This document shows positions 18,405 through 48,203 of a stretch of DNA of 64,000 nt, piece after piece (position 1 is the first letter of the stretch; each line of letters begins with the position of its first letter). The stretch lies in sequence record MK327931.1. One strand, 5' to 3'. Both the position numbers and the translations under genes were made by a program. Below the pieces are notes generated by a model, which was not told the DNA's origin, ran no database searches, and was given only the letters and a program-made list of their open reading frames with translations. Origin of the DNA: Escherichia phage vB_EcoM_G17.

Positions 18405-19079
18405 TCAATAAAAAACTGGATCTTCTTCAGTAATTGGTATTTCTCTACGCACATCACACGAAAGAGGATCAGTAATGAATACATTCCCATCTTTATCCAT
18501 CATCACATTACTTGAATGAATGTCTGGTACAAAACGCCCGTGAAACTCTTTCATGATGTTAGCAGCGACCGTTGCAATAGCAATCTCTTCAGAATTTCCA
18601 CGCATATCATTCACTGAAGTTGCGTACTGACCAGCATGTGCATACGAATACAAATCTCCAATTTTAGTACTAACAAAGTCATCATAATTATTTTTTTGTT
18701 TAATTATAGGATAGTACTTGTCCATCTCATACCATCCAAAGTTTCCTTGTTCGTTTGCACTGTAGATCACAGGAAGAAACTTGGTTCCTGCGTTTTCAAT
18801 GCAGTACTTTGCATAAGCACGAAAACCATCCCAGCGTGAAGTGGTTACTTTAAATGCACTTCCAGGATAGTTTTTATGTTCAACTACTACAGAGTACATC
18901 CCCATTCCAAGCAAAGTAAGTCCAGCAGCTTTAACTTGTGGAAAGATTACGCGTTCAGCATAAGGAATATCAAACTCCATCGCACAACGAGTTTTTGATG
19001 GACGCAAAATGTCAATTAAAGTTTTGAATATTTCTTGCTTAGTCATTACTTTATCCTCTGTAGTTAATACCAACATCAT
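18405..19079 (-). CDS. Putative atypical kinase-like protein
   Basis: LGMGMYSVVV (Gly-loop-like), AFKV, and DIHSSNVMMDKDGNVFITDP (catalytic-loop/DFG-like); weak, by eye. Confidence 0.35.
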   Translation of the reverse strand: MMLVLTTEDKVMTKQEIFKTLIDILRPSKTRCAMEFDIPYAERVIFPQVKAAGLTLLGMGMYSVVVEHKNYPGSAFKVTTSRWDGFRAYAKYCIENAGTKFLPVIYSANEQGNFGWYEMDKYYPIIKQKNNYDDFVSTKIGDLYSYAHAGQYATSVNDMRGNSEEIAIATVAANIMKEFHGRFVPDIHSSNVMMDKDGNVFITDPLSCDVRREIPITEEDPVFY

Positions 19080-19878: not shown

Positions 19879-20130
19879 TCACCGAAACTCTTTTTCTATT
19901 CCCATTACATCAGTCTTACGCTCAGATAGTATACCTGAAGTATATGAATCTTTGTTGTCAAACGCATTAAATCCAATAGTTCTGTCGGTGTCGTGTATTA
20001 TTCCTTTTGTGTATGAGGTAGTATAGAACTCCCCATTTCTGAAATCCTGCCTTGCTACGGAGCAATGATAATCTGCACCATAAGCAGTACTGGAAAATAA
20101 TACAATTCCAAATATAATATATTTTTTCAT
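19879..20130 (-). CDS. secreted protein (signal peptide)
   Basis: Start at MKKYIIFGIVLFSSTAYGA (RBS agaggg); the longer track ORF would run through the PeSL element. Confidence 0.55.
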   Translation of the reverse strand: MKKYIIFGIVLFSSTAYGADYHCSVARQDFRNGEFYTTSYTKGIIHDTDRTIGFNAFDNKDSYTSGILSERKTDVMGIEKEFR

Positions 20131-20164
20131 TGTAATCCCTCTTCTTAATTCCTCTTTTGTATTT

Positions 20165-20200
20165 ACAAAAAAAGGCTGACCGAAGTCAACCTTTAGTTTT
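20165..20200 (-). promoter_or_regulatory. PeSL-like stem-loop (copy 5)
   Basis: acaaaaaaaggctgaccgaagtcaaccttt. Confidence 0.55.
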
Positions 20201-20201
20201 A

Positions 20202-21746
20202 TCATTTACCGTATTTGCTCATGATGTCCTTTTCCCAATGAGTTACGTTACCGTTATCGTAATCTTTAAAGGAATTATCAAGAGTAGTTAATGCATATTC
20301 GTATGCTTCAGGTGATTCAATGTCAACATCATCAGCACCATTTACTAAATCAGTCCATGCTTTTTGTAGTTTACGAGCATTTTTACCAACATTACTTTTA
20401 ATCCAACTAATGTTTTTGTTGATACTCTTATTATCAGCACCAGCTTTTTTACCAATATCGGATATCCACATCATTAGCTTTTGGAGTTCATGAATGGAGT
20501 TGTCGTTCATTTCACGATCTTTAGCCAATTCTGCTTCCATGCCATCAGTATCAGTACCATCTTTAGAACCTACATCAATTCCATGTTTAGCTAATAGTTT
20601 ACCAAGTTCAAAGAATGCTGCCTCAGCAGGGAAGTCATAACCTTTGTCTTTGTAGTTGTTCCATGCACTATCAAACTCATCTACAAATCGGTTGGCATAA
20701 TCTGGATTGTCCACGAGAGCTTTGTACACTGCCATTGCATGTTCAAATCCTTCTTTGTCAGAACCAAACTCTCCCATTTCTGGACGATGAATGTAACCAT
20801 CCATATCAACAGTATCAGGTAAATCATCATGAGATGTTTCAGCATCTTTCTGGTCAACTGCACCTTCTTCATCTGCACGAACTAAGTAACCATCTTTTGA
20901 TACTTTCTCACCATGTTCAGCTTCATACTTTTTCATAGTATTGAATGCAGAATTCATAACAGTGATGAATCGAGACTTCTCACCTGGTGAGTAAGAATCT
21001 AATGCTGCTTTAATAGCATCATGTACTAATTGAATCTTATCATCTTTGCCTTCAAGACGATTTTCTAACTTAGCAAGAACATTCTTAACTTGCTGGGCGT
21101 TAGCACGGTCTTCTTTACCTATACGGTTAACAGTATGGAGGATGCTTTCAAGACTTGCTTCTTCAGCAGTCGCTTCTTCTTGTCCTTCAAGTGCACGCAT
21201 GATAGTACTGAATACTTCAGTTGGTTCAGTACTGGTATTTCCACTCATTGCATCAAGTACAGCTTGTGCTTTGACTTTTAATTCTTCTTTAGGTACAGAT
21301 TGCAATTCTTTCACAATACCTTGGATAAGTTGTGGTTTATTAGCAAAAATCTTACCTAACTTATCAGACAATTCTTTGACAGGGTTAACCGCCTTTGGTG
21401 CTTCTTGTTTTGGTTCTTCTTTCGCAGGAGAAGACTTTTCTTTTTCTTCACGTTCCATATCAGCTAGGCGTTGTTTTTGTGTAGCATTAAGAAGTCCCAA
21501 TGAATTAACATAACGTAGCTTTTCTAGCTCAGTCATGTTCTCAGTACTCTTAACTTCACCTGCTTCTGCGTTTGCTTTACCAGCTAGACCAGTTCCTTGG
21601 TTACGTGATCCACGTGAACCTTGACCTGCTTGATAACTATTTGGTCGGCGGTTGCGTTCACTCCATTTATCCGAGTGACCAGCCATGTTACCACCATTTT
21701 TATCAGTAAAATTACTTGGCATTTGATTTCTCTCCATAGATTTCAT
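20202..21746 (-). CDS. hypothetical Lys/Glu-rich protein (514 aa)
   Basis: Basic low-complexity N-terminus, YVNSLGLL motif shared with 21992..22375, acidic C-terminal half. Confidence 0.7.
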   Translation of the reverse strand: MKSMERNQMPSNFTDKNGGNMAGHSDKWSERNRRPNSYQAGQGSRGSRNQGTGLAGKANAEAGEVKSTENMTELEKLRYVNSLGLLNATQKQRLADMEREEKEKSSPAKEEPKQEAPKAVNPVKELSDKLGKIFANKPQLIQGIVKELQSVPKEELKVKAQAVLDAMSGNTSTEPTEVFSTIMRALEGQEEATAEEASLESILHTVNRIGKEDRANAQQVKNVLAKLENRLEGKDDKIQLVHDAIKAALDSYSPGEKSRFITVMNSAFNTMKKYEAEHGEKVSKDGYLVRADEEGAVDQKDAETSHDDLPDTVDMDGYIHRPEMGEFGSDKEGFEHAMAVYKALVDNPDYANRFVDEFDSAWNNYKDKGYDFPAEAAFFELGKLLAKHGIDVGSKDGTDTDGMEAELAKDREMNDNSIHELQKLMMWISDIGKKAGADNKSINKNISWIKSNVGKNARKLQKAWTDLVNGADDVDIESPEAYEYALTTLDNSFKDYDNGNVTHWEKDIMSKYGK

Positions 21747-21774
21747 TTTTTCTCTATGTCTATATTTATAGTAT

Positions 21775-21805
21775 AAAGAAAAGGCTGACCGAAGTCAACC
21801 TTATT
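21775..21805 (-). promoter_or_regulatory. PeSL-like stem-loop (copy 6)
   Basis: aaaaggctgaccgaagtcaacctta. Confidence 0.55.
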
Positions 21806-21808
21806 TTG

Positions 21809-21922
21809 TTACTTAGATTGTTCTTGTGCAGGTGGATTTACTTTTTGATCCACTACATAGAATACACCACCAACCAGTACTGCGGCGATGAGTGCAGCAA
21901 CTACAAATTTCAAACCTTGCAT
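21809..21922 (-). CDS. small membrane protein (37 aa), not in ORF track
   Basis: MQGLKFVVAALIAAVLVGGVFYVVDQK...; RBS gaggta. Confidence 0.35.
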   Translation of the reverse strand: MQGLKFVVAALIAAVLVGGVFYVVDQKVNPPAQEQSK

Positions 21923-21949
21923 ATATGATACCTCAGTTATATTGAGAAG

Positions 21950-21990
21950 TTATGATACAACAAAGGGCTGACCTTAGTCAACCCCTTTTT
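21950..21990 (-). promoter_or_regulatory. PeSL-like stem-loop (copy 7, loop variant)
   Basis: gggctgaccTTAGtcaacccc; minus strand TTGACT-N18-TATCAT. Confidence 0.5.
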
Positions 21991-21991
21991 A

Positions 21992-22375
21992 TTACTTCTT
22001 GAACTTATGTTTTTCACTTTCGATTGCATTCACGATTTCATCATGAATTTTACGAAGATTGTGAGTTTTCTTGAGAGAATCATGCAATGCACGGAATGCA
22101 GAGTGTACAGTTGCTTTAAAGTGCTCTTTAGGAGTTACTTTAAGTTTCTCGATAATATCACGTACATAGATTGGGTGATCTTCAAACACACGGTTTAGCT
22201 CGTGGCCTAGAGACTCTAGACTAAACGCTTTTTCACGTGAAGGACGATCATGTGCAAGACTTTGGTCAGGTTTTAGAAGACCTAGTGAATCTAGATATTT
22301 GTGCTTATGTGCATTGTCTAGACCAGAAATATCAACATCATGGGATGGATCTTTCTTATTCCATTTATCAACCAT
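21992..22375 (-). CDS. hypothetical protein (127 aa), N-terminal paralogue of 20202..21746
   Basis: Shares DKW...KYLDSLGLL motif. Confidence 0.6.
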   Translation of the reverse strand: MVDKWNKKDPSHDVDISGLDNAHKHKYLDSLGLLKPDQSLAHDRPSREKAFSLESLGHELNRVFEDHPIYVRDIIEKLKVTPKEHFKATVHSAFRALHDSLKKTHNLRKIHDEIVNAIESEKHKFKK

Positions 22376-22490
22376 TTTTATAACTCCTATAAGAGATAAA
22401 TTTTACTATAATATTTATAGTTCCTGTGTCATTTATATGAACTGACATAGAAAATTATATCATATTAAAAATGGTTGTCCCAAAGTTAAA

Positions 22491-22964
22491 TCAGTACTGA
22501 TCAAGTTCAGATGTAAAAATGAATGCATCCATGTCTTCCAACGTAAGTTTTAAGTCTGGTACGTACTTAAGAATAACGCACTCTGGCTTCTTAATAGCAG
22601 CTTGATAAGCAGCAATGGCAAGGGATTCCAACTGCTGTGCTGTATAATTTTTACGTTCTGCATTAAAAACTTTGTTTTTGATATCACCACCTGGGAGTTT
22701 TTCAAACTCACGCATAACTGCGGTAAGAACATCGTCAGCAGTGTTACTATATACCCATTGGGGTAATTGCATTACATTATAAATCACACCACTATCATCC
22801 ATCAAAGAGATCCATTTATATCCATCACTCGCACTAAACAAACGCCCTTTTAGTACTGTGTTATTAGTTAAATTTACAAATGCAAAAATATCTTGTTCGT
22901 TAAGTTCAATACTATTAACATTTACCCAACTCATTACGATTCCCCATTCATAAATCACGAACAA
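22491..22964 (-). CDS. hypothetical protein (157 aa)
   Basis: ORF in array. Confidence 0.55.
   Translation of the reverse strand: MFVIYEWGIVMSWVNVNSIELNEQDIFAFVNLTNNTVLKGRLFSASDGYKWISLMDDSGVIYNVMQLPQWVYSNTADDVLTAVMREFEKLPGGDIKNKVFNAERKNYTAQQLESLAIAAYQAAIKKPECVILKYVPDLKLTLEDMDAFIFTSELDQY

Positions 22965-47595: not shown

Positions 47596-48203
<608 letters not shown>

What the first reader, a model, noticed from the sequence alone, without database searches (positions are those of the whole stretch)
20202..22375. Two proteins of very different size share an N-terminal DKW...Y-x-(N/D)-SLGLL module
The 514-aa and 127-aa ORFs both begin with a basic region containing DKW and then (R/K)Y(V/L)(N/D)SLGLL, before diverging completely. 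Each is flanked by PeSL elements. This is another shared N-terminal module on different cargo, like the leader array at 313-7553.
Basis: seen in the sequence. Interest (0 to 1): 0.45.

Follow-up and report, generated by a model that had tools for sequence, protein, structure and literature searches.

The report
Paralogous late virion proteins, jumbo phage
Two neighbouring genes of the E. coli jumbo phage Sharanji encode related virion proteins, the small one being a stand-alone copy of the large one's N-terminal domain; this is a real but fairly ordinary gene-family relationship, and their function is still unknown.

Summary
The window is Escherichia phage Sharanji (Asteriusvirus, a RaK2-like jumbo myovirus). 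The two ORFs are gp148 (514 aa as an ORF, probably 506 aa from Met9) and gp150 (127 aa).

The DKW and (R/K)Y(V/L)(N/D)SLGLL matches are real, and the two proteins are homologous. BLASTP gives E=2e-8; Smith-Waterman gives z=9.1, with 0 of 2000 shuffles reaching the observed score.

They do not "diverge completely" after SLGLL. Taken alone, the stretch after the motif is just as significant (z=10.7). The small protein aligns end to end with residues ~60-190 of the large one, so it is the module alone and carries no different cargo.

An exhaustive profile search of 1.84 billion proteins found only 35 relatives. All are long forms or module-only forms from RaK2/GAP32/CBB-type jumbo phages.

Published virion mass spectrometry detects homologues in phAPEC6 (both proteins), CBB and RaK2. 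In RaK2 the large homologue has the second-highest peptide count.

Both genes sit behind a T4-type late promoter, TATAAATA. That motif occurs 15 times in the genome against ~67 expected, and 11 occurrences are in promoter position, including those for the capsid and scaffold genes. The phage encodes a gp55-like late sigma factor.

No Pfam, PDB or fold relative exists outside the family.

Best reading: paralogous, late-expressed, abundant virion proteins sharing a retained docking domain, possibly located inside the head. Interest is low to moderate.

The parts
20202..21746 (-). Large paralogue, Sharanji gp148. The ORF is 514 aa; the probable CDS is 20202-21722 (506 aa from Met9). It belongs to phrog_20398 'virion structural protein'.
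   Evidence: The AF2 model is all-alpha, a string of separate helical domains (mean pLDDT 73.8).
21555..21722 (-). Residues 1-56 of the large protein: a conserved but predicted-disordered, G/S/N/Q-rich, mildly basic N-terminal segment (MPxxFxxKNGxxxxGHSDKWSxxNRR..GSRGSRNQGTG..GKANT). It contains DKW at 21663-21671.
   Evidence: pLDDT is below 50. pI is 10.0. The segment is conserved across genera.
21432..21554 (-). Residues 57-97 of the large protein: a helix-turn-helix carrying (K)LRYVNSLGLL (motif at 21489-21515).
   Evidence: Helices 65-74 and 80-97, pLDDT 82-85. K68, Y71, L75, G76 and L77 are invariant in 36 sequences.
21183..21389 (-). Residues 112-180 of the large protein: the 4-helix bundle of the shared module (NPVKELSDKLGKIF...PKEELK...EVFSTIMRALEG).
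   Evidence: bundle HMM domain E=2.5e-34.
20205..21182 (-). Residues 181-506 of the large protein: an acidic helical C-terminal extension that the small paralogue lacks. The middle (181-390) is variable; the end domain (391-506) is conserved.
   Evidence: Among 65 relatives, residues 181-283 are found in 48, 284-390 in 12 and 391-506 in 61. Residues 284-506 have net charge -23. pLDDT is ~90 for 400-500.
21992..22375 (-). Small paralogue, Sharanji gp150 (127 aa), a module-only protein in phrog_16530 'virion structural protein'. DKW is at 22361-22369, KYLDSLGLL at 22274-22300 and the 4-helix bundle at 21995-22222.
   Evidence: It is 99.2% identical to phAPEC6 gp037c, which was detected in virions.
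21763..21770 (-). T4-type late promoter motif TATAAATA, 40 nt upstream of the Met9 ATG of the large gene. It directly abuts the -10 (TATACT) of the stem-loop promoter cassette.
22412..22419 (-). T4-type late promoter motif TATAAATA, 36 nt upstream of the ATG of the small gene.
21781..21802 (-). PeSL-like terminator/promoter cassette between gp149 and the large gene. It is a hairpin, AAGGTTGAC-TTCG-GTCAGCCTT, with the -35 (TTGACT) in the 5' arm and TATACT 17 nt downstream.
21966..21983 (-). PeSL-like cassette (core GGTTGACTAAGGTCAGCC) just after the stop codon of the small gene. It serves as terminator for the small gene and as promoter for the 37-aa gp149.
20171..20194 (-). PeSL-like hairpin followed by a T-run, just after the stop codon of the large gene.
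22454..22483 (-). Sigma70-like promoter match (TTGGGA-18-TGnTATAAT) upstream of the small gene, with no hairpin.
   Evidence: a consensus match only.
21809..21922 (-). gp149, a 37-aa single-pass membrane peptide between the two paralogues (phrog_35037). It is not part of the module family.

Best explanation
gp148 and gp150 are ancient paralogues (24% identity) of a small protein family confined to RaK2/GAP32/CBB-type jumbo myoviruses.

**The shared unit.** It is a module of ~120-180 aa with four parts:
- a conserved but disordered Gly/Ser/Asn/Gln-rich N-terminal tail, mostly deleted in the Sharanji small protein so that only DKW remains;
- an amphipathic helix ending in KLKY(F/V)NSLGLL;
- a short linker;
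- a 4-helix bundle.

The small protein is this module alone. That stand-alone form is the widespread and probably ancestral one. The large protein is the same module followed by an acidic, all-helical extension with an indel-prone middle.

**Expression and location.** Both genes are late-promoter islands (TATAAATA, read by the phage's gp55-like sigma factor) inside a region of small genes punctuated by early-type stem-loop promoter cassettes. Both proteins are built into virions.

**Inferred mechanism.**
- The module is not a cleaved targeting leader. It is a retained, folded docking or oligomerisation domain that fixes both paralogues to the same partner, or to each other, in the particle.
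- The part needed for incorporation lies in the helix-SLGLL plus bundle region. The reason is that the small protein reaches the virion without the disordered tail.
- The most likely location is inside the head, among the DNA-embedded internal or inner-body proteins whose identity is unknown in 121Q and phAPEC6. This last step is the weakest.

**Status of each step.**
- Shown here: homology, family architecture, promoter motifs.
- Shown in relatives by published mass spectrometry: presence in virions.
- Inferred: the docking role and the head-internal location.
For: **Homology and its extent**
- Pairwise, profile and shuffle tests all support it.
- Relatives of the small protein keep the full N-terminal tail: P0078, P0084, Serratia phage BF gp027 and CBB_38.

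**Family census**
- Tblastn with the large-family homologue K64-1 P0048 found matches in 69 phage records, all in jumbo phages of about 310-386 kb apart from one 52-kb record (phiKp_21).
- Only 35 clusters were found among 1.84e9 representative proteins.
- Only two ORFs in the whole Sharanji genome carry the module.

**Presence in virions (published ESI-MS/MS)**
- phAPEC6 gp035c: 8 peptides, 28.8% coverage. phAPEC6 gp037c: 5 peptides, 48% coverage (PMC7247149).
- CBB_38: 9 peptides, 56.6% coverage (PMC5259590).
- RaK2 gp275: 20 unique peptides, 34.3% coverage, second only to the tail sheath among 54 virion proteins (PMC3622015 Table S3).

**Late expression**
- TATAAATA occurs 3 times in the window against 14.4 +/- 3.9 expected, and two of the three precede these genes.
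- Genome-wide it occurs 15 times against ~67 expected. Eleven occurrences lie 16-56 nt upstream of a same-strand start with a Shine-Dalgarno sequence. These include the major capsid, scaffold, baseplate, endonuclease VII and two other virion-protein genes.
- The motif is conserved upstream of both genes in 121Q and phAPEC6 and upstream of the large gene in Klebsiella phage RCIP0023.
- Sharanji gp368 is a gp55-like late sigma factor (phrog_12791, 2.4e-154).
- The CBB paper reports an ATAAATA motif before structural genes.

**The module is a retained domain**
- The small protein consists of nothing else and is detected in virions.
- No (L/I)xE site is shared by the two families.

**Structure**
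- The bundle is predicted at pLDDT 81-88.

**Internal-head idea**
- 121Q and phAPEC6 show an inner body in bubblegrams, and its components are unidentified.
- The proteins are abundant.
- They are encoded away from the structural gene clusters.
- They are helical with disordered tails.
Against: - No experiment locates these proteins within the particle.
- The mass spectrometry was done on relatives, not on Sharanji. The small protein is 99.2% identical to its phAPEC6 homologue. The phAPEC6 large-family form (417 aa) is ~87% identical over only ~58% of the Sharanji protein.
- The phAPEC6 virion list also contains RecA-like, SSB and topoisomerase proteins, so some entries may be co-purifying DNA-bound proteins.
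- The large protein is acidic overall (pI 5.1), unlike the basic T4 internal proteins.
- In CBB and Serratia phage BF the homologue sits behind a consensus sigma70 promoter with no TATAAATA, so late-only expression is not universal.
- No fold or sequence relative of known function exists, so the docking role is an argument from architecture only.
- Peptide counts are a crude proxy for copy number.
Confidence: 0.55

Rival explanations
1. T4-style capsid-targeting leader or propeptide. The shared N-terminal segment would be a targeting signal that brings unrelated cargo proteins into the prohead and is then cut off by the gp21-like prohead protease.
For: - The phage has a T4 gp21-like prohead protease (gp358).
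- Both proteins are in virions.
- The shared part is N-terminal.
- A V-K-E site at the linker/bundle boundary is invariant in all 31 large-family sequences.
- T4 internal proteins share only a capsid-targeting sequence (PMC3012670).
Against: - The shared region is 120-180 aa and includes a folded 4-helix bundle. It makes up the whole of the small protein, which would have no cargo left.
- Similarity after the SLGLL motif is as strong as similarity including it.
- There is only one C-terminal family and no third architecture.
- No (L/I)xE site lies at a homologous position in both families.
- The small protein lacks most of the N-terminal tail yet is still found in virions.
Confidence: 0.1
2. 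External structural components. The two paralogues would be parts of the tail hairs or whiskers, the fibre-anchoring apparatus or the capsid decoration of these morphologically complex phages, with the module as the attachment domain.
For: - phAPEC6 and CBB carry unusual hair-like tail fibres whose genes are unassigned.
- The proteins are abundant and late-expressed.
- Elongated chains of helical domains could form fibrous material.
Against: - The family is present throughout the clade, including GAP32, for which the CBB paper leaves open whether hairs exist.
- The genes lie far from the tail and baseplate clusters.
- No trimeric fibre, beta-helix or Ig-like decoration features were found.
- None of this evidence is decisive.
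Confidence: 0.25
3. Not true virion components. They would be abundant DNA- or particle-associated infection proteins that co-purify with virions, with the shared module serving an intracellular function.
For: - The phAPEC6 virion list includes RecA-like, SSB and topoisomerase proteins.
- The genes lie among early-type genes with sigma70-like cassettes.
- The CBB and Serratia phage BF homologues have consensus sigma70 promoters.
Against: - The proteins were detected independently in three differently purified phages with high coverage.
- RaK2 gp275 has more unique peptides than the major capsid protein.
- Both genes carry the same rare late-promoter motif as the capsid and scaffold genes.
Confidence: 0.08
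4. Chance resemblance of two unrelated low-complexity helical proteins.
For: - Both proteins are K/E-rich and helical.
- The second BLAST segment (E=0.003) is weak, and a profile comparison did not confirm it.
Against: - z=9-11 with 0 of 2000 shuffles reaching the observed score.
- Reciprocal PHROG profile hits of 8.5e-38 and 1.2e-3.
- Bridging sequences such as P0078 and Serratia phage BF gp027 join the two families.
- Ten columns are invariant across both families.
Confidence: 0.01

Closest known systems
phrog_20398 and phrog_16530 'virion structural protein' families: RaK2 gp275, 121Q gp201/gp199, phAPEC6 gp035c/gp037c, CBB_38, GAP32 gp032, Serratia phage BF gp027
   Same: - Direct sequence membership: 1.8e-209 and 6.2e-56.
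- The small protein is 99-100% identical to those of PBECO4, 121Q and phAPEC6.
- Relatives are verified in virions by mass spectrometry.
   Different: - Nothing differs in kind.
- What this analysis adds: the two PHROG families are one superfamily, the small form equals the N-terminal module of the large form, and both genes carry late promoters.
- Function remains unknown in all members.
T4 internal proteins (IPI, IPII, IPIII, Alt) with the ~10-aa capsid-targeting sequence
   Same: - Virion-packaged proteins encoded outside the main structural clusters.
- Related N-termini.
- Late promoter TATAAATA with a gp55-type sigma factor.
- The phage has a gp21-like prohead protease.
   Different: - The shared part here is a 120-180-aa folded domain, not a short leader.
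- No shared (L/I)xE site.
- No diverse cargo.
- The large protein is acidic.
- Packaging inside the head is not demonstrated.
phiKZ / 201phi2-1 / SPN3US inner-body and ejection-protein paralogue families
   Same: - Jumbo phages with a bubblegram inner body (121Q and phAPEC6).
- Clustered paralogous abundant head proteins.
   Different: - No sequence similarity: the phAPEC6 paper reports none to any phiKZ inner-body protein, and there is no Pfam, PDB or fold link.
- Proteolytic processing and head location are untested here.
PeSL (promoter-early stem-loop) composite terminator/promoter cassettes of T4-like phages (Arbiol 2010, PMC2839356; Comeau 2014, PMC4122927)
   Same: - Small repeated intergenic hairpins fused to a sigma70-type promoter in regions of small variable genes.
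- Here there are 8 copies of the 18-nt core (7 exact, 1 differing in the loop), with the -35 in the stem and TATAAT 17 nt downstream.
   Different: - The sequence differs from the T4-like PeSLs, and the host phage is a RaK2-like jumbo phage.
- A role in recombinational shuffling was not tested here.
- The copy upstream of the large gene has its -10 abutted by a late promoter.

Membership tests
phrog_16530 / phrog_20398 (RaK2-like 'virion structural protein' families) | Significant match to the family profile over most of its length | tested here: met
   - Large protein against phrog_20398: 1.8e-209.
- Small protein against phrog_16530: 6.2e-56.
- Cross-hits: 8.5e-38 and 1.2e-3.
phrog_16530 / phrog_20398 (RaK2-like 'virion structural protein' families) | Physical presence in purified virions | not testable with these tools
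   - Not measured for Sharanji; its paper reports no virion mass spectrometry.
- Published mass spectrometry on phAPEC6, CBB and RaK2 homologues is positive.
T4-type internal proteins with a capsid-targeting sequence | A short (~10 aa) shared N-terminal targeting sequence on otherwise unrelated proteins | tested here: not met
   - The shared region is 120-180 aa and spans the entire small protein.
- Similarity after the motif alone gives z=10.7.
- There is a single C-terminal family.
T4-type internal proteins with a capsid-targeting sequence | Removal of the leader by the prohead protease at a conserved (L/I)xE site | tested here: inconclusive
   - No (L/I)xE site lies at a homologous position in both families.
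- The large family has an invariant V-K-E117 at the linker/bundle boundary. The small family has only I-I-E76, inside a helix.
- Actual cleavage is not testable here.
T4-type internal proteins with a capsid-targeting sequence | Late transcription from TATAAATA by a gp55-type sigma factor | tested here: met
   - The motif lies 36-40 nt upstream of both starts.
- Genome-wide it is depleted (15 against ~67 expected), with 11 of 15 in promoter position, including the capsid and scaffold genes.
- A gp55-like sigma factor is present.
- This is sequence evidence only; there are no transcript data.
T4-type internal proteins with a capsid-targeting sequence | Location inside the head and ejection with the DNA | not testable with these tools
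   No localisation data were found in the papers read.
phiKZ-type inner-body proteins | Sequence or fold homology to phiKZ gp89/90/93/95/97/162 | tested here: not met
   - No Pfam hit.
- No PDB sequence hit.
- Foldseek against BFVD returns only members of the protein's own family.
- The phAPEC6 paper reports no similarity.
phiKZ-type inner-body proteins | Constituent of a bubblegram-visible inner body | not testable with these tools
   An inner body is seen in 121Q and phAPEC6, but its components are unknown.
PeSL cassettes of T4-like phages (the flanking elements) | A repeated intergenic stem-loop terminator fused to an early sigma70-type promoter | tested here: met
   - Eight copies on the coding strand against 0.01 expected by chance.
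- Each follows a stop codon, with TTGACT in the stem, a T-run, and in most copies a close match to TATAAT at 17 nt (exact in 4 of 8).
- Three copies lie at this locus.
PeSL cassettes of T4-like phages (the flanking elements) | Demonstrated role as recombination points for gene shuffling between related genomes | not tested
   - Indel boundaries between Asteriusvirus genomes were not mapped.
- A gap in the megablast match to the phAPEC6-type genomes falls inside the large gene, not at a cassette.

The most novel reading that the evidence does not exclude
gp148/gp150 and their homologues would be major constituents of the still-unidentified DNA-embedded inner body, or the ejected-protein bolus, of RaK2-like jumbo phages (121Q, phAPEC6). 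The helix-SLGLL plus 4-helix-bundle module would then be the self-assembly or core-docking unit, and the conserved disordered Gly/Ser/Arg-rich tail would contact DNA or the portal. This would be a second, sequence-unrelated solution to the phiKZ inner body, and the module could be used to package foreign proteins into these heads.
Probability: 0.25. Interest if true: 0.5.

Novelty: new member of a known kind. Interest (0 to 1): 0.22.

Why it matters
Most virion proteins of RaK2-like jumbo phages have no assigned role, and the proteins that form the inner body seen in 121Q and phAPEC6 are unknown.

This analysis narrows the candidates. Two mass-spectrometry-verified virion proteins turn out to form one family built on a common ~120-aa helical module. 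They carry the same rare late promoter as the capsid and scaffold genes. One member ranks second by peptide count in RaK2. Together these points make a short, testable candidate list for internal head proteins.

The analysis also corrects the likely start codon of gp148. It shows that T4-style late promoters and PeSL-like early cassettes can be read directly from the sequence in this clade.

In itself, the finding is a routine paralogue relationship in an already sequenced phage.

Tried and rejected
1. **Internal repeats in the large protein.** A second BLAST segment (198-251 against small 52-100, E=0.003) suggested that the bundle recurs.
   - hhalign of family sub-alignments gave only E=0.03-0.2 over ~20 columns.
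   - The idea is rejected for this protein. Distant module-only relatives P0095 and P0091 do carry a real tandem second bundle (3.8e-10 and 2.8e-6).
2. **Known domains.** Pfam gave only sub-threshold noise. A PDB sequence profile search found nothing.
3. **Fold searches.**
   - Foldseek against PDB found no hit with E <= 1e-3.
   - BFVD returned only members of the protein's own family.
4. **"Different cargo".** Clustering the C-terminal parts gave one connected family. The exhaustive profile search found no other architecture.
5. **More copies of the module.** None in the window or in the whole genome.
6. **A shared T4-type cleavage site.** None found.
7. **Peptide-level mass-spectrometry data to map processing.** No phAPEC6 supplement is held.
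8. **Absence from a solved RaK2-like virion structure as evidence of an internal location.** This cannot be used, because no such structure is in the PDB. The best hits to the major capsid protein are T4-type gp23 chains at 1e-40.
9. **The neighbouring 460-aa gene in Klebsiella phage RCIP0023.** It is not a module carrier.
Full report
**Identity of the window**

Megablast of 20000-22600 gives a 100% match to Escherichia phage Sharanji (OR545507.1, Asteriusvirus, 350,079 bp). Window position x corresponds to record position 47,777+x. Close relatives include slurp01, PBECO4, 121Q and phAPEC6.

- The 514-aa ORF (20202-21746, minus strand) is Sharanji gp148.
- The 127-aa ORF (21992-22375, minus strand) is gp150.
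- A 37-aa membrane peptide, gp149, lies between them.
- Sharanji annotates all three as hypothetical. RefSeq annotates the 121Q homologues gp201 and gp199 as "virion structural protein".

**Checking the observation**

They are the only two matches to SLGLL or [RK]Y.[NDQK].LGL[LM] in the six-frame translation of the window.

The two proteins are homologous.
- BLASTP gives E=2e-8, 24% identity over 119 aa, aligning large 75-191 with small 23-123.
- The Smith-Waterman score is 85 against 36 +/- 5.4 for 2000 shuffles (z=9.1, none reaching it).
- The large protein hits the small protein's PHROG profile (phrog_16530) at 8.5e-38 over residues 9-189. The small protein hits the large family's profile at 1.2e-3.

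The claim that they then "diverge completely" is wrong.
- The segment after SLGLL alone scores 72 against 25 +/- 4.4 (z=10.7).
- The alignment continues to the last residues of the small protein.
- K, Y, L, G, L, F, P, I, L and A are invariant across 24 sequences from both families.

The large protein most likely starts at Met9 (ATG at 21722).
- GGAG lies 8 nt upstream of that ATG.
- All homologues start with MP.
- 121Q and phAPEC6 are annotated that way.

**Anatomy of the module**

A joint alignment and two AlphaFold2 models define four parts, numbered from Met9 in the large protein.

| Part | Residues | Description |
|---|---|---|
| i | 1-56 | Strongly conserved but predicted-disordered G/S/N/Q-rich tail (pI 10.0), containing GHSDKW and GSRGSRNQGTG |
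| ii | 57-97 | Two helices joined at KLRYVNSLGLL (pLDDT 82-85) |
| iii | 98-111 | Disordered linker |
| iv | 112-180 | 4-helix bundle |

- The Sharanji small protein has parts ii-iv. Of part i it keeps only "DKW".
- Other members of the small family still carry the whole tail: P0078 (171 aa), P0084, Serratia phage BF gp027 (155 aa) and CBB_38 (172 aa).
- DKW is therefore a true homologous remnant, and the small protein is a module-only protein.
- Only the large protein begins with a basic region. Residues 1-16 of the small protein have net charge -1.

The rest of the large protein (181-506) is acidic and all-helical, forming a string of separately folded helical domains (pTM 0.29). Among 65 relatives:
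- residues 1-180 are present in all, at >=56% identity;
- residues 181-283 are present in 48;
- residues 284-390 are present in 12;
- residues 391-506 are present in 61.

The C-terminal parts cluster as a single family.

**Distribution**

- Tblastn finds the module in 55-69 phage records, all but one RaK2/GAP32/CBB-type jumbo phages of Escherichia, Klebsiella, Salmonella, Erwinia, Yersinia, Serratia, Pectobacterium, Cronobacter and Xanthomonas; the exception is a 52-kb Klebsiella phage record, phiKp_21.
- In the CBB, GAP32 and BF group only the ~155-172-aa stand-alone form exists.
- An exhaustive HMM search of 1.84 billion representative proteins returned only 35 hits at E <= 1e-3. These are long forms (412-598 aa), module-only forms (127-270 aa) or fragments. 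No third kind of "cargo" appears.
- I assembled the complete Sharanji genome from fetched pieces. A six-frame HMM search of it finds the module in these two ORFs only.
- Two distant module-only relatives carry a genuine tandem second bundle: P0095 (3.8e-10) and P0091 (2.8e-6). No second copy is demonstrable in the Sharanji large protein.

**What they are**

Published ESI-MS/MS detects the family in purified virions of three phages.

| Phage | Protein | Unique peptides | Coverage | Source |
|---|---|---|---|---|
| phAPEC6 | gp035c (large form) | 8 | 28.8% | PMC7247149 Table 1, |
| phAPEC6 | gp037c (99.2% identical to the Sharanji small protein) | 5 | 48% | PMC7247149 Table 1, |
| CBB | CBB_38 | 9 | 56.6% | PMC5259590 Table 4, |
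| RaK2 | gp275 | 20 | 34.3% | PMC3622015 Table S3, |

RaK2 gp275 has the second-highest peptide count of 54 virion proteins, behind the tail sheath (21) and ahead of the major capsid protein (10). The Sharanji paper itself reports no virion proteomics.

**Regulation**

The T4 late-promoter octamer TATAAATA occurs 3 times in the window against 14.4 +/- 3.9 expected. Two of the three lie 36 and 40 nt upstream of these two start codons.

In the whole genome it occurs 15 times against ~67 expected from a first-order Markov model. Eleven occurrences lie 16-56 nt upstream of a same-strand gene start with a Shine-Dalgarno sequence. The genes served are:
- the major capsid protein (gp356) and the scaffold (gp357);
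- a baseplate protein (gp363);
- endonuclease VII (gp365);
- two other "virion structural protein" genes (gp287 and gp369);
- gp373, gp345 and gp459;
- the two genes studied here.

Further points:
- The motif is conserved upstream of both genes in 121Q and phAPEC6 and upstream of the large gene in Klebsiella phage RCIP0023. RaK2 has ATAAATA there instead.
- Sharanji gp368 is a gp55-like late sigma factor (phrog_12791, 2.4e-154; phrog_234, 8.4e-18).
- The CBB paper independently proposed ATAAATA as the late promoter of structural genes in that clade.

Both genes are therefore late-promoter islands in a long run of small minus-strand genes.

That run is punctuated by a repeated cassette with this layout: stop codon, AAAGGGTTGACTTCGGTCAGCCCTTTTTG, (C)TATAAT, ~25 nt, Shine-Dalgarno sequence, ATG.
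- There are eight copies in the window against 0.01 expected.
- The -35 lies in the 5' arm of a terminator-like hairpin.
- This is the architecture described as PeSL in T4-like phages (PMC2839356, PMC4122927).
- Three copies flank these genes, two around the large gene and one after the small gene. The "flanked by PeSL" remark is thus partly right.
- In the copy upstream of the large gene, the -10 (TATACT) runs straight into the late TATAAATA.
- In CBB and Serratia phage BF the homologue sits behind a consensus TTGACA-17-TATAAT promoter inside an inverted repeat, with no TATAAATA.

**Search for function**

- Pfam gave only sub-threshold noise.
- A PDB sequence profile search found nothing.
- Foldseek of the large model against PDB found no hit with E <= 1e-3.
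- Foldseek against BFVD returned only members of the protein's own family.
- No RaK2-like capsid is in the PDB. The best hits to the major capsid protein are T4-type gp23 chains at 1e-40. Absence from a solved particle therefore cannot be used as evidence.
- No (L/I)xE site is conserved at a homologous position in both families. The large family has an invariant V-K-E117 at the linker/bundle boundary. The small family has I-I-E76 inside a helix.

**Interpretation**

Shown here or in published work:
- The two proteins are paralogues.
- The small one is the module alone.
- The family is restricted to one clade of jumbo phages.
- Both genes carry the phage's rare late-promoter motif.
- Homologues are abundant in virions.

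Inferred:
- The module is a retained docking or oligomerisation domain rather than a removable leader. The small protein consists of nothing else and is still found in particles.
- The determinant common to both lies in the helix-SLGLL plus bundle region, because the small protein lacks the disordered tail.
- The proposed location is among the internal head proteins. 121Q and phAPEC6 show a phiKZ-like inner body whose proteins are unknown. The phAPEC6 authors suggested the RCC1-like proteins, which are the "leader array" of this window.
- The supports for that location are abundance, late expression, a position outside the structural clusters and helical/disordered character. All of these are circumstantial. 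I give it about 0.25-0.3.
- An external role (tail hairs, fibres or capsid decoration) remains a serious rival.

**Comparison with what is known, and verdict**

- By sequence, these are members of phrog_20398 and phrog_16530, that is, the RaK2 gp275 / 121Q gp201-gp199 / phAPEC6 gp035c-gp037c / CBB_38 family. That family is already flagged as virion structural and of unknown function.
- They resemble T4 internal proteins only in being late-expressed virion proteins with related N-termini. The defining short capsid-targeting sequence on diverse cargo is not met.
- They have no detectable relationship to phiKZ inner-body proteins.
- Novelty is low: a paralogue relationship within a catalogued family. 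The modest additions are the merging of the two PHROG families, a corrected start codon and a promoter map.
- Interest is 0.22.

Noticed in passing
window 313-7553 (+), continuing upstream of the window to record 40817 (L011): This is an array of RCC1-like paralogues, plus one Gly-rich protein at 1573-2310, all starting MLPF(A/G/S)RM(M/I/V/L)(N/K)YGN. Their phAPEC6 homologues (gp003-gp010, 'DNA condensation protein') are found in virions by mass spectrometry. The leader is unrelated to the DKW/SLGLL module. None of these genes has TATAAATA upstream.
   Followed up: partly
window ~225-312, ~1485-1572, ~2293-2380 (+): Three of the array genes share a different upstream cassette: the hairpin GCCAGTAC-NNNN-GTACTGGC, a T-run, (G/T)ATTAAATATA(G/T)TATAA, then AAAGGAGG and the ATG. 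It may be a terminator plus a variant promoter specific to the array.
   Followed up: no
whole Sharanji genome (assembled from L009-L016 plus the window): TATAAATA is about 4.5-fold depleted (15 occurrences against ~67 expected). Eleven of the 15 sit 16-56 nt upstream of gene starts, including capsid, scaffold, baseplate and endonuclease VII genes. The other four are at record 109390(+) (window 61613), 140537(+) inside gp301, 162061(-) inside exoX, and 301501(+), which lies 190 nt before gp489.
   Followed up: yes
L009:11053-11892 (-) = record 196052-196891, gp368: This gene is annotated as hypothetical but is a gp55-like sigma factor for late transcription (phrog_12791, 2.4e-154; phrog_234, 8.4e-18).
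   Followed up: partly
window 19879-20205 (-), gp147: The annotated 108-aa ORF probably starts at the internal MKKYIIFGIVLFSSTAYG, a signal-peptide-like N-terminus. The PHROG match (phrog_28901) begins at residue 26, and 121Q annotates the shorter form.
   Followed up: no
window 18405-19079 (-), gp144: This 224-aa protein is hypothetical in Sharanji. Its homologues in 121Q and phAPEC6 are annotated as a T7 gp0.7-like protein kinase (host transcription shut-off). It lies three genes downstream of the large paralogue.
   Followed up: no
window 11898, 13312, 14594, 19089, 20174, 21783, 21966, 25208 (- strand): There are eight copies of the hairpin/promoter cassette GGTTGACT(TC/AA)GGTCAGCC. All are on the coding strand immediately after a stop codon, and most have a close match to TATAAT 17 nt after the TTGACT (exact in 4 of 8). 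This is a PeSL-like element in a non-T4 jumbo phage.
   Followed up: partly
L004 ~3740-3841 (Serratia phage BF) and L008 ~2400-2500 (CBB): In the CBB and BF group, the module-only gene is preceded by a consensus TTGACA-17-TATAAT promoter embedded in the inverted repeat AATCCCCTAA...TTAGGGGATT. In CBB the gene lies inside the 22-kb terminal repeat, so it is present in two copies per genome.
   Followed up: no
L006 4448-5407 (Salmonella phage PHA46); L007 1261-2457 (RaK2): Homing-type endonuclease genes lie directly next to the module genes: an HNH endonuclease after the small gene in PHA46, and the endonuclease ORF274 before gp275 in RaK2. This suggests the locus is a hot spot for mobile-element insertion.
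   Followed up: no
proteins P0095 and P0091 (metagenomic relatives): These module-only relatives carry a tandem duplication of the 4-helix bundle (second copy at 3.8e-10 and 2.8e-6). The bundle therefore behaves as a repeatable unit in this family.
   Followed up: partly
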